A stretch of DNA of 64,000 nt from Escherichia phage UB. The stretch lies in the sequence record MH383160; one strand, 5' to 3'. The position numbers and the translations under genes were made by a program. Shown here one piece after another: positions 37,263-37,847 of the stretch (its first letter is position 1; every line of letters begins with the position of its first letter). The notes below the pieces were generated by a model that searched no databases, was not told where the DNA came from, and saw only the letters and a program-made list of their open reading frames with translations.

Positions 37263-37847
37263 TTATCGTGTTATAGTTACGGCTTTTACATCACGCTTTT
37301 TATAGTACTGATTCCAGATATTGCGGGTTAAACCGTAATCAAGTACTTTAATAAGTCCATTACGATCCTGGCCGATATTCTGTTTTCTGATATCTCTTAT
37401 CGTTAGTGTTGATAATGTATCATCAACGTGTTGTAGTGCATCAGCAAAGCGGTGCTGGCGTTCGATTGCATTACGTTTAATATTGTACTTTAATTCATTG
37501 CACGCGTTTACGTGCTTCACACTGCCTTTGCTTGCAGTACTCAACCGATCCATAACGATAAACATATTATCAGGATCGCATAAATGCATATGCACTTTAG
37601 CAAAATACTGTTTCAACTGAGGGCGGTCATAGTCTAAAAAATTCCATACCTTACATTCAGTTTCATTTTGTTCTACACCCGCATCACAATTAGCGACCTT
37701 AATCACTAACCGATCATTTAAAGCGAATACAATACGGGAAGAACCCGCACCGATGATCTCCAGACCAGCTAACCGACAAGCTGAAAGGATCTCTTTGTTG
37801 GTTTCCATTTCTGACAGGGTACGGATGAATTTAGTATAATTACGCAT
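37263..37847 (-). CDS. protein-kinase-like protein (minimal Ser/Thr-kinase-type fold)
   Basis: ORF trimmed to ATG 37847 (AAGGAG RBS); Gly-rich loop IGAGSSRIVF, VIKV lysine, catalytic-loop-like DIRKQNIG and DFG-like VLDYGL in canonical order. Confidence 0.55.
   Translation of the reverse strand: MRNYTKFIRTLSEMETNKEILSACRLAGLEIIGAGSSRIVFALNDRLVIKVANCDAGVEQNETECKVWNFLDYDRPQLKQYFAKVHMHLCDPDNMFIVMDRLSTASKGSVKHVNACNELKYNIKRNAIERQHRFADALQHVDDTLSTLTIRDIRKQNIGQDRNGLIKVLDYGLTRNIWNQYYKKRDVKAVTITR

What the first reader, a model, noticed from the sequence alone, without database searches (positions are those of the whole stretch)
37263..37847. Minimal protein-kinase-like protein in the early-like block
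The 194-aa product has, in canonical order, a glycine-rich loop (IGAGSSRIVF), a VIKV lysine motif, a catalytic-loop-like DIRKQNIG (D-x-K-x-x-N) and a DFG-like VLDYGL. Phage-encoded Ser/Thr kinases that phosphorylate host proteins are known (T7 gp0.7), but this one is much smaller.
Basis: partly seen in the sequence, partly recalled or inferred. Interest (0 to 1): 0.5.

Follow-up and report, generated by a model that had tools for sequence, protein, structure and literature searches.

The report
Minimal early kinase of a jumbo phage
This 194-residue protein of a giant E. coli phage is a stripped-down protein-kinase-like enzyme, probably made at the very start of infection; public databases already label it a putative kinase, but its target and role have never been tested.

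Summary
The ORF is real: window 37263-37847, minus strand, 194 aa, 100% identical to phAPEC6 gp500c, in an Asteriusvirus jumbo coliphage. All four motifs are present. One correction: the catalytic loop reads D152-I-R-K155-Q-N157, so it is D-x-x-K-x-N, not D-x-K-x-x-N.

K50, E64, D152 and D170 are essentially invariant in 201 domains of a family with more than 2,000 clusters (PHROG 4301, no Pfam model). The protein ends 24 residues after D170, so it has no activation loop, APE motif or helices F-I. That truncation is typical of the family.

In related phages with mapped ends the gene lies in the ~20-kb direct terminal repeat. In the window that region carries 13 perfect sigma-70 promoters.

Best reading: a constitutively active early phosphotransferase, probably a protein kinase acting on host proteins. 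The substrate is not shown. UniRef, several GenBank records and the Sharanji genome paper already call it a protein kinase of unknown function. It is unrelated to the phage's second, T7-like kinase. Verdict: new member of a known kind, moderate interest.

The parts
37263..37847 (-). CDS for the 194-aa minimal protein-kinase-like protein, orthologue of phAPEC6 gp500c and Sharanji gp063 (WNN14351.1); member of PHROG 4301
37767..37847 (-). N-terminal extension of two helices (residues 1-27) that precedes the kinase N-lobe; conserved in the family (K6, F7, N17, C24)
37728..37751 (-). Glycine-rich ATP loop G33-A-G35-S-S-R38-I-V40. The third Gly of the canonical GxGxxG is replaced by Arg38, conserved in 195/196 domains
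37698..37700 (-). Codon of K50, the strand beta3 lysine (VIKV); 197/197 in the family
37656..37658 (-). Codon of E64 in helix C (family signature G-x-x-Q-N-x-x-E); presumed partner of K50; 197/197 in the family
37377..37394 (-). Catalytic loop D152-I-R-K-Q-N157. D152 is 187/192 in the family. N157 is conserved in the close clade but is H, N, S or Q family-wide
37332..37340 (-). DFG-equivalent D170-Y-G172 (D 192/192, G 190/190). Only 24 residues follow, forming one helix (175-189)
37856..37861 (-). Shine-Dalgarno AAGGAG, 8 nt upstream of the ATG
   Evidence: read directly from the sequence
37876..37904 (-). Promoter-like site TTGCCA-N10-AGTACTG-TAAGAT (9 of 12 matches to the sigma-70 consensus). 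It shares the AGTACTG spacer motif of the perfect-consensus promoters nearby
37224..37251 (-). Terminator-like hairpin of 12 pairs, starting 12 nt after the stop codon, with a weak T tract. It overlaps the next gene's promoter-like site
33000..53400 (-). Approximate equivalent of the ~21-kb direct terminal repeat of Asteriusvirus genomes. It consists of small minus-strand genes, holds 13 of the 14 perfect sigma-70 promoters, and has 37.9% G+C against about 32% in the flanks. The boundaries are mapped by homology only

Best explanation
The gene encodes a stand-alone, stripped-down protein-kinase-like phosphotransferase.

Proposed catalysis (inferred):
- ATP binds between a complete N-lobe and a reduced C-lobe.
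- The N-lobe provides the Gly loop G33-R38 and the K50-E64 pair.
- The C-lobe is only helices D and E, the catalytic loop, D-Y-G and one terminal helix.
- D152 acts as catalytic base.
- N157 and D170 hold Mg2+.

Regulation (inferred): there is no activation loop, no conserved Arg before the catalytic Asp, and no regulatory domain. The enzyme should therefore be active as soon as it is made.

Timing (inferred): the gene has its own host-type promoter and lies in the direct terminal repeat. It should be transcribed by host RNA polymerase as soon as phage DNA enters, and packaged genomes carry two copies.

Most likely role (inferred by analogy with the T7 kinase): it phosphorylates host and possibly phage proteins on Ser, Thr or Tyr as part of host takeover or counter-defence.

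Shown here: the fold, conservation of the catalytic residues, the family-wide truncation, and the gene's position.
For: Fold:
- AlphaFold2 gave pLDDT 92.7.
- Profile hits to MKK4/MKK7 cover residues 29-182 at E 2e-4 to 6e-5.

Nearest sequence families:
- The only recurrent Pfam families among 41 members are Pkinase (best E 5.7e-6), ABC1 and PK_Tyr_Ser-Thr.
- There are weak PADLOC hits to the PD-T4-6 Ser/Thr kinase models.

Selection for catalysis:
- K50, E64, D152, D170 and G172 are essentially invariant in 201 domains.
- The family has 2,065 50%-identity clusters at E <= 1e-3.
- The tail after the DFG Asp has a median of 24 residues in 99 single-domain members.

Early expression:
- The orthologue lies inside the annotated terminal repeat of vB_Ec-M-J (1-21,525; gene 16,690-17,274).
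- The same holds for fENko-Kae01 (repeat 19,736 bp; gene 16,233-16,823).
- fEgEco12 has a repeat of 20,993 bp, confirmed by restriction digests (PMC13070987), and its gene is at about 16.3-16.7 kb.
- The window has 14 perfect TTGACA-N16-18-TATAAT sites, all on the gene's strand, against 0.31 expected. Thirteen lie at 35.2-52.9 kb.
- The phAPEC6 genome paper lists a phage-encoded sigma factor but no phage RNA polymerase among annotated functions (PMC7247149).

Precedent: the early T7 kinase is a promiscuous anti-defence enzyme (PMC13645617, PMC12345140).

Delivery at infection start: one family member is embedded as two domains in a 3,248-aa tape-measure protein.
Against: - No experiment exists for any family member.
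- The protein scores below Pfam's Pkinase cut-off (17.9 against 31.7 bits).
- The usual protein-substrate-binding parts are absent: the activation segment with its P+1 loop, and helices F-I.
- The catalytic-loop Lys typical of Ser/Thr kinases is missing at D+2. The proven T7-type kinases also lack it: the Sharanji homologue reads D-I-H-S-S-N.
- Proteins encoded in the terminal-repeat region are not depleted in Ser, Thr and Tyr (17.0% against 17.5-20% in neighbouring blocks). T7-like phages do show such depletion.
- Early timing rests on gene position and promoter consensus, not on transcript data.
Confidence: 0.6

Rival explanations
1. It is a kinase-fold phosphotransferase, but for a non-protein substrate. 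Candidates are a small molecule, a nucleotide, a sugar or lipid, or RNA/tRNA as for the archaeal 2'-kinase ArkI.
For: - The protein-substrate-binding half of the C-lobe is missing.
- One family member (P0111, 2,130 aa, on a 43-kb phage-like contig) joins several such domains to a 2H phosphoesterase and a CCA-adding enzyme, both RNA-end enzymes.
Against: - Sequence profiles find protein kinases (MKK4/7, FGFR, BTK, PknB), not APH, choline kinase, RIO or Kdo kinase families.
- The RNA-enzyme fusion is a single case, and its RNA domains lie about 400 residues beyond the last kinase-like domain.
- Proven minimal protein kinases exist (OspG; the T7 kinase domain).
Confidence: 0.2
2. It is a partner-dependent kinase or ATPase switch. 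On its own it is weak or inactive and needs a host or phage protein to complete or activate the C-lobe, as OspG needs E2~ubiquitin and Bud32 needs the KEOPS complex. Alternatively it acts mainly by binding, as a pseudokinase-like scaffold.
For: - Known kinases of this size mostly work this way (general knowledge of OspG, Bud32/PRPK and Rio).
- PRPK and Rio2 are among the structural matches.
- The family often occurs as tandem arrays of 2-5 domains in one polypeptide (P0021, P0023, P0027). That may mean the domains work in contact with each other.
Against: - Near-total conservation of K50, E64, D152 and D170 argues for real catalysis, not mere binding.
- No conserved neighbouring gene suggests a dedicated partner.
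- No specific similarity to OspG was found (hhalign E 0.022, probability 2%).
Confidence: 0.15
3. The motifs are a chance resemblance and the protein is not a kinase-fold enzyme.
For: - The single-sequence Pfam and PDB hits are all sub-threshold (E 0.002-0.9).
- The first structure prediction, from 12 sequences, was poor (pLDDT 49).
Against: - Profile hits become significant as homologues are added.
- The 41-sequence model is confident and kinase-like.
- The motif residues are exactly the invariant ones in a family of about 2,000 clusters.
Confidence: 0.03

Closest known systems
Phage T7 protein kinase gp0.7 (T7K; PHROG 2828/15752) and its jumbo-phage homologues, such as Sharanji gp144
   Same: - Phage-encoded and early.
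- A compact kinase domain that ends soon after the DFG-equivalent motif, with no activation loop.
- No catalytic-loop Lys at D+2.
- Foldseek relates the model to T7-like kinases in BFVD (E about 3e-6, TM 0.53-0.55).
- Likely works in a similar way, as an unregulated early kinase.
   Different: - Different sequence family. There is no PHROG 2828 hit, and hhalign against the phage's own T7-like kinase gives E 0.056, probability 1%, covering only the catalytic loop.
- D-Y-G instead of D-P-V.
- No DNA-binding shut-off domain.
- Lies in the terminal repeat, about 46 kb from the T7-like gene.
Eukaryotic-type (Hanks) Ser/Thr/Tyr protein kinases, such as MKK4/MKK7 and PknB (Pfam PF00069)
   Same: - Best sequence-profile matches.
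- Same order of Gly loop, beta3 Lys, helix-C Glu, catalytic Asp...Asn and DFG-like motif.
   Different: - Covers only about positions 26-152 of the 263-position Pfam profile.
- Lacks the activation segment, the APE motif and helices F-I.
- The third Gly of the loop is an invariant Arg.
- No HRD motif.
- Scores below Pfam's threshold.
Shigella OspG and EHEC NleH, minimal type III effector kinases (OspG is 196 aa)
   Same: - Almost identical size.
- A kinase core with no activation loop and no G-H-I helices (general knowledge).
- Found in enterobacteria.
   Different: - No specific sequence relationship (hhalign E 0.022, probability 2%).
- Not among the top 50-60 structural matches.
- No evidence of E2~ubiquitin-type activation, and bacteria have no such partner.
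Rio kinases, Bud32/PRPK and archaeal RNA kinase ArkI (small atypical kinases)
   Same: - Small kinase-like folds without activation loops.
   Different: - No Pfam RIO1 or related hit in 41 members.
- Different signature motifs.
SAICAR synthetase (PurC)
   Different: - 12% identity and no sequence-profile signal.
- The kinase motifs (VIK Lys, helix-C Glu, D...N, DYG) are those of kinases, not of PurC.
- This is a resemblance of fold only.

Membership tests
Protein-kinase-like (PKL) fold superfamily | Two-lobed fold: N-lobe beta sheet plus helix C, and a C-lobe carrying the catalytic loop and the metal-binding Asp | tested here: met
Protein-kinase-like (PKL) fold superfamily | Conserved beta3 Lys, helix-C Glu, catalytic Asp and DFG-type Asp | tested here: met
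   K50 197/197, E64 197/197, D152 187/192 and D170 192/192 in 201 family domains.
Canonical protein kinase domain (Pfam PF00069, Hanks type) | Score at or above Pfam's gathering threshold | tested here: not met
   17.9 bits against a cut-off of 31.7. The best of 41 relatives reaches E 5.7e-6.
Canonical protein kinase domain (Pfam PF00069, Hanks type) | Activation segment ending in APE, followed by helices F-I (subdomains VIII-XI) | tested here: not met
   The protein ends 24 residues after D170, with one helix at 175-189. The family median tail is 24 residues.
Canonical protein kinase domain (Pfam PF00069, Hanks type) | HRD catalytic motif with Lys at D+2 (Ser/Thr kinases) or Arg at D+4 (Tyr kinases) | tested here: not met
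   The window has T-I-R-D-I-R-K-Q-N. The residue before D152 and the one at D+2 both vary in the family.
T7 gp0.7 kinase family (PHROG 2828/15752) | Match to the family HMM | tested here: not met
   No PHROG 2828 or 15752 hit at E <= 1. Sharanji gp144 scores 1e-97 and 6.9e-16 against those models. hhalign between the two gives probability 1%.
T7 gp0.7 kinase family (PHROG 2828/15752) | D-P-V in place of DFG, and in T7-like phages a C-terminal shut-off domain | tested here: not met
   The motif here is D170-Y-G172 and there is no extra domain. The family features are taken from PMC13645617.
OspG/NleH minimal effector kinases | Detectable sequence or profile homology | tested here: not met
   The OspG sequence was checked against Shigella plasmids (100% identity). 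hhalign gives E 0.022, probability 2%. NCBIfam gives no effector-kinase hit.
OspG/NleH minimal effector kinases | Activation by binding an E2~ubiquitin conjugate | not testable with these tools
   Requires biochemistry. No such partner exists in E. coli.
RIO / Bud32 atypical kinases | Match to the family models (for example Pfam RIO1) | tested here: not met
PHROG 4301 (phage protein family of unknown function) | Match to the family HMM over most of its length | tested here: met
   E 7.9e-42, residues 3-188 against profile positions 13-185 of 225.
Early (host-RNA-polymerase-transcribed) phage gene | Transcribed in the first minutes of infection from a sigma-70 promoter | tested here: inconclusive
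   A promoter-like site sits upstream and orthologues lie in the terminal repeat. No transcript data were found.

The most novel reading that the evidence does not exclude
PHROG 4301 would be a second lineage of phage 'first-strike' kinases, independent of the T7 kinase. Its members are about 190 aa, lack an activation loop and are always on. They reach the cell at the very start of infection, either from terminal-repeat genes read by host polymerase or physically injected as domains of a tape-measure protein. They would broadly phosphorylate host proteins to disable defence systems. The invariant Arg38 in the Gly loop and the Q-N-x-x-E helix C would define a new catalytic variant of the kinase fold.
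Probability: 0.25. Interest if true: 0.65.

Novelty: new member of a known kind. Interest (0 to 1): 0.38.

Why it matters
Work from 2024-2026 showed that the early T7 kinase disarms many bacterial defence systems by mass phosphorylation (PMC13645617, PMC12345140). Asteriusvirus and RaK2-like jumbo phages, which are being considered for therapy, carry a T7-like kinase and also this unrelated minimal kinase in their terminal repeat.

If it is active, it offers a second, very small model for how a kinase core works without an activation loop or a substrate-binding lobe. It would also be another candidate counter-defence or takeover factor. The family is large (about 2,000 clusters at 50% identity), has no Pfam model and has never been studied. 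It also occurs as tandem arrays and inside a tape-measure protein.

It is not a new kind of thing, however, and it is already labelled a putative kinase in databases.

Tried and rejected
- AlphaFold2 with only 12 close homologues gave an unusable model (pLDDT 49). It was replaced by the 41-sequence run.
- The afdb50 fold library was not available, so BFVD was used instead.
- Paralogues in the window: tblastn and an HMM of the family found only the gene itself. The array of 150-200-aa ORFs at 0.7-24 kb is unrelated. Only six of those ORFs are detectably paralogous to each other.
- Specific kinship with OspG and with the phage's T7-like kinase was rejected.
- YrbL, AceK, RIO, APH and Kdo-kinase membership: no hits among 41 members. 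Only one long relative (P0031) has sub-threshold YrbL and AceK hits.
- Defence-system membership: only weak PD-T4-6 kinase hits (E 2e-4). These were read as generic kinase similarity.
- Ser/Thr/Tyr depletion of terminal-repeat proteins, a possible footprint of a promiscuous kinase, was not seen (17.0% against 17.5-20%). This was a crude ORF-based test within the window only.
- Contig look-ups for P0023, P0059 and P0087 gave short contigs with little context.
- A literature search for Asteriusvirus transcriptomics was set too loosely and returned nothing relevant. No paper with expression or functional data for this gene was found.
- Virion packaging: gp500 is not mentioned among virion proteins in the main text of the phAPEC6 paper. 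The fENko-Kae01 orthologue lacks the LC-MS/MS note that its neighbours carry. The supplements were not checked.

Full report
**1. The observation**

The ORF lies on the minus strand at 37263-37847. It starts with ATG at 37847 and ends with TAA at 37263-37265, giving 194 aa. An AAGGAG site sits 8 nt upstream of the ATG. Met1 is invariant in 12 homologues.

- I32-GAGSSRIVF.
- V48-I-K50-V.
- D152-I-R-K-Q-N157-I-G.
- V168-L-D170-Y-G172-L.

One detail is wrong. DIRKQN is D-x-x-K-x-N, not D-x-K-x-x-N. In HMMER alignments with real kinases, R154 occupies the position of the catalytic-loop lysine, and that position is variable in the family.

**2. Source of the window**

The window comes from an Asteriusvirus jumbo coliphage of the PBECO4/121Q/phAPEC6 group. 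The protein is 100% identical to phAPEC6 gp500c (QDF14123.1) and to the slurp01 orthologue. It is 92-99% identical in about 30 other Escherichia and Salmonella jumbo phages.

Relatives at 27-40% identity occur in RaK2-like Klebsiella phages, Salmonella SE_PL and Munch, fENko-Kae01, Erwinia, Xanthomonas, Yersinia and Pectobacterium CBB. All are jumbo phages.

At 50-58 kb the window matches phAPEC6 over only 64% of the query, so it is a mosaic relative rather than phAPEC6 itself.

**3. Is it a kinase fold?**

The single sequence gives only sub-threshold hits:
- Pfam Pkinase: E 0.002, 17.9 bits against a cut-off of 31.7.
- PDB: the best weak hits listed are all protein kinases.
- PADLOC: PD-T4-6 kinase models, E 2e-4.
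- NCBIfam: nothing useful.
- PHROGs: PHROG 4301, 'unknown function', E 8e-42.

Profiles built from homologues make the signal significant. They hit MKK4 and MKK7 at E 2e-4 to 6e-4 across residues 29-182, and MKK4 at 6e-5 with a broader alignment.

An exhaustive profile search found 2,065 clusters (50% identity) at E <= 1e-3 and 248 at E <= 1e-10. Nearly half of the proteins retrieved (72 of 160) are 230 aa or shorter.

AlphaFold2 with 12 close sequences failed (pLDDT 49). With 41 diverse sequences it gave pLDDT 92.7 and pTM 0.87. The predicted elements, in order, are:
- Two N-terminal helices (4-12, 17-26).
- beta1, Gly loop, beta2 (30-42).
- beta3 (47-52, containing K50).
- A long helix C (55-73, containing E64).
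- The hinge strand (96-100).
- Helices D (108-120) and E (129-145).
- The catalytic loop, then two short strands.
- D-Y-G.
- One terminal helix (175-189).

Structure searches with this model gave:
- Foldseek against the PDB: only kinase-like folds among the listed hits, at E 3e-5 to 8e-4. These include APH(2''), MEK1, Rio2, OSR1, PknB, Lpg2603 and PRPK.

**4. Family anatomy**

Conservation across 201 domains from 161 proteins:

| Residue | Conservation |
|---|---|
| K50 | 197/197 |
| E64 | 197/197 |
| R38 | 195/196 |
| Q60 | 193/196 |
| N61 | 192/196 |
| D152 | 187/192 (the rest Glu) |
| G159 | 189/192 |
| D170 | 192/192 |
| G172 | 190/190 |
| N157 | N only in the close clade; H, N, S or Q family-wide |

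The signatures G-x-G-S-S-R-x-V-[FY] and K-[IV]-A-x-N-x-x-G-x-x-Q-N-x-x-E are specific to the family. Arg38 replaces the third glycine of the canonical loop.

In 99 single-domain members the tail after the DFG Asp has a median of 24 residues. The absence of the activation segment, the APE motif and helices F-I is thus a family trait, not a truncated gene.

Among 41 members, the only recurrent Pfam kinase families are Pkinase (6 members), ABC1 (5) and PK_Tyr_Ser-Thr (3). There are no RIO1, APH, Kdo or YrbL hits.

**5. Genomic setting**

The gene sits in a long run of small minus-strand genes of unknown function.

In phages whose ends were determined, the orthologue lies inside the direct terminal repeat:
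- vB_Ec-M-J: repeat 1-21,525, gene 16,690-17,274.
- fENko-Kae01: repeat 19,736 bp, gene 16,233-16,823, annotated 'putative protein kinase'.
- fEgEco12: repeat 20,993 bp, confirmed by restriction digests (PMC13070987). Its gene is at about 16.3-16.7 kb.

Records that include both repeats show two copies of the gene. Mapping onto the window places the repeat at roughly 33.0-53.4 kb.

The window holds 14 perfect TTGACA-N16-18-TATAAT sites against 0.31 expected. All are on the minus strand, and 13 lie within 35.2-52.9 kb. Most carry AGTACTG just before the -10 element.

The kinase gene has a weaker version of this promoter, TTGCCA-N10-AGTACTG-TAAGAT (37904-37876). A hairpin follows 12 nt after its stop codon.

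The phAPEC6 genome paper lists a phage-encoded sigma factor but no phage RNA polymerase among the annotated functions (PMC7247149). Early transcription by host polymerase is therefore a reasonable inference, but I found no transcript data.

**6. What is already known**

- UniRef names this exact sequence 'Protein kinase domain-containing protein', and BFVD gives the PBECO4 entry the same name.
- GenBank records variously call orthologues 'putative protein kinase', 'serine/threonine-protein kinase', 'PknA' or 'PRP4'.
- The Sharanji genome paper names the orthologue WNN14351.1 (mapped) as 'another protein kinase, which function is unknown'. It treats it as distinct from WNN14432.1, the T7-kinase homologue (PMC11895373).

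I confirmed that WNN14432.1 (224 aa) belongs to PHROG 15752/2828. It lies about 46 kb away, outside the window. It is unrelated to this protein apart from the catalytic loop (hhalign probability 1%).

The Nature 2026 paper on the T7 kinase lists jumbo-phage homologues (Escherichia phage G17, Salmonella phage Munch) found with the PHROG 2828 model, with function unknown (PMC13645617). In Sharanji, a close relative of G17, that model matches the other gene.

No experimental work on PHROG 4301 was found.

**7. Mechanism**

*Shown:*
- The kinase-like fold.
- Strict conservation of the ATP- and Mg-binding and catalytic residues.
- No activation loop and no regulatory domain.
- Position in the terminal repeat, with a host-type promoter.

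*Inferred:*
- An always-active phosphotransferase made at once after DNA entry.
- It acts on host proteins for takeover or counter-defence, by analogy with the T7 kinase (PMC13645617, PMC12345140).

*Points that weaken the protein-substrate inference:*
- The substrate-binding lobe is missing.
- There is no Lys at D+2, although the T7-type kinase also lacks one.
- The fold also matches SAICAR synthetase, antibiotic kinases and RNA kinases.
- Proteins encoded in the terminal-repeat region show no Ser/Thr/Tyr depletion.

*Rivals:* a non-protein substrate (0.2), a partner-dependent kinase or ATPase (0.15), and chance resemblance (0.03).

**8. Comparison and membership**

It is a member of the protein-kinase-like fold superfamily and of PHROG 4301.

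It is not a member of the following:
- Pfam PF00069 by Pfam's own threshold, and it lacks subdomains VIII-XI.
- The T7 kinase family.
- The OspG/NleH family. The OspG sequence was verified, and hhalign gave probability 2%.
- The RIO or Bud32 families.

It most resembles OspG in size and architecture. It most resembles the T7 kinase in biological setting.

**9. Family-level extras**

- Some relatives are tandem arrays of 2-5 such domains in one ORF: P0021 (693 aa), P0023 (923 aa) and P0027 (468 aa).
- P0134 is a 3,248-aa tape-measure protein (PF10145) with two intact kinase-like domains, on a 39-kb phage-like contig.
- P0111 (2,130 aa, on a 43-kb phage-like contig) joins several copies to GNAT, 2H phosphoesterase and CCA-adding domains.

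The tape-measure case fits delivery at the very start of infection. The P0111 case keeps an RNA-related role alive.

**10. Verdict**

The feature is a new, uncharacterised member of a known kind, a minimal phage kinase that databases and one paper already flag as a putative kinase. Interest is moderate at 0.38. It would rise if the enzyme proved to be a second, independent early anti-defence kinase lineage.

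Noticed in passing
window 35264-52854, minus strand: Thirteen of the window's 14 perfect sigma-70 consensus promoters (TTGACA-N16-18-TATAAT; 0.31 expected by chance) lie here, all on the gene strand. Most have a conserved AGTACTG (a palindromic AGTACT core) directly before the -10 element, so they look like a phage-specific early promoter class.
   Followed up: partly
window ~33000-53400: This is the region homologous to the ~21-kb direct terminal repeat of Asteriusvirus genomes. Its G+C content is 37.9%, against about 32% on both sides. The boundaries were mapped only by homology to vB_Ec-M-J and fEgEco12.
   Followed up: partly
window 57978-62812, plus strand: Four adjacent genes (384, 375, 449 and 417 aa) all carry RCC1-like beta-propeller repeats. 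This paralogous block starts right after the strand switch. Sharanji has about a dozen similar-sized genes in a row at the corresponding place.
   Followed up: partly
window 738-23765, minus strand: A long run of about 30 head-to-tail ORFs of 150-207 aa has no Pfam hits in the two ORFs tested. Only six of them (7420-7914, 8651-9121, 13997-14449, 14427-14915, 15355-15825, 15827-16318) are detectable paralogues, at 29-61% identity.
   Followed up: partly
window 38150-38178 and 38426-38454, minus strand: Two nearly identical promoter-plus-leader copies produce spurious TTG-start ORF extensions that begin 'MTVLKCFS...'. The real genes start at internal ATGs.
   Followed up: no
L005:26183-26857 (Sharanji gp144, WNN14432.1), outside the window: This phage group has a second small kinase of 224 aa. 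It belongs to the T7 kinase family (PHROG 15752 at 1e-97, PHROG 2828 at 7e-16), has a D-P motif in place of DFG and lacks a shut-off domain. These phages therefore carry two unrelated minimal kinases.
   Followed up: partly
L007:2318-12064 (protein P0134): A 3,248-aa phage tape-measure protein (PF10145) contains two tandem, apparently intact kinase-like domains of this family (residues 665-831 and 855-1032). This is possibly a kinase injected with the DNA.
   Followed up: partly
L010:6001-12393 (P0111); L006:204-2975 (P0023): Some relatives are single ORFs with 2-5 tandem copies of the ~200-aa domain. P0111 also adds GNAT, 2H phosphoesterase and CCA-adding enzyme domains. It sits on a phage-like contig next to genes for DNA polymerase B, NUDIX and GIY-YIG proteins.
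   Followed up: partly
window 50000-58000: phAPEC6 is identical at the kinase gene, yet here it matches over only 64% of the query (94% identity). Coverage is fuller in CRJP21 and WPEC5. The window's phage is therefore a mosaic relative, with variable gene content near the repeat boundary.
   Followed up: no
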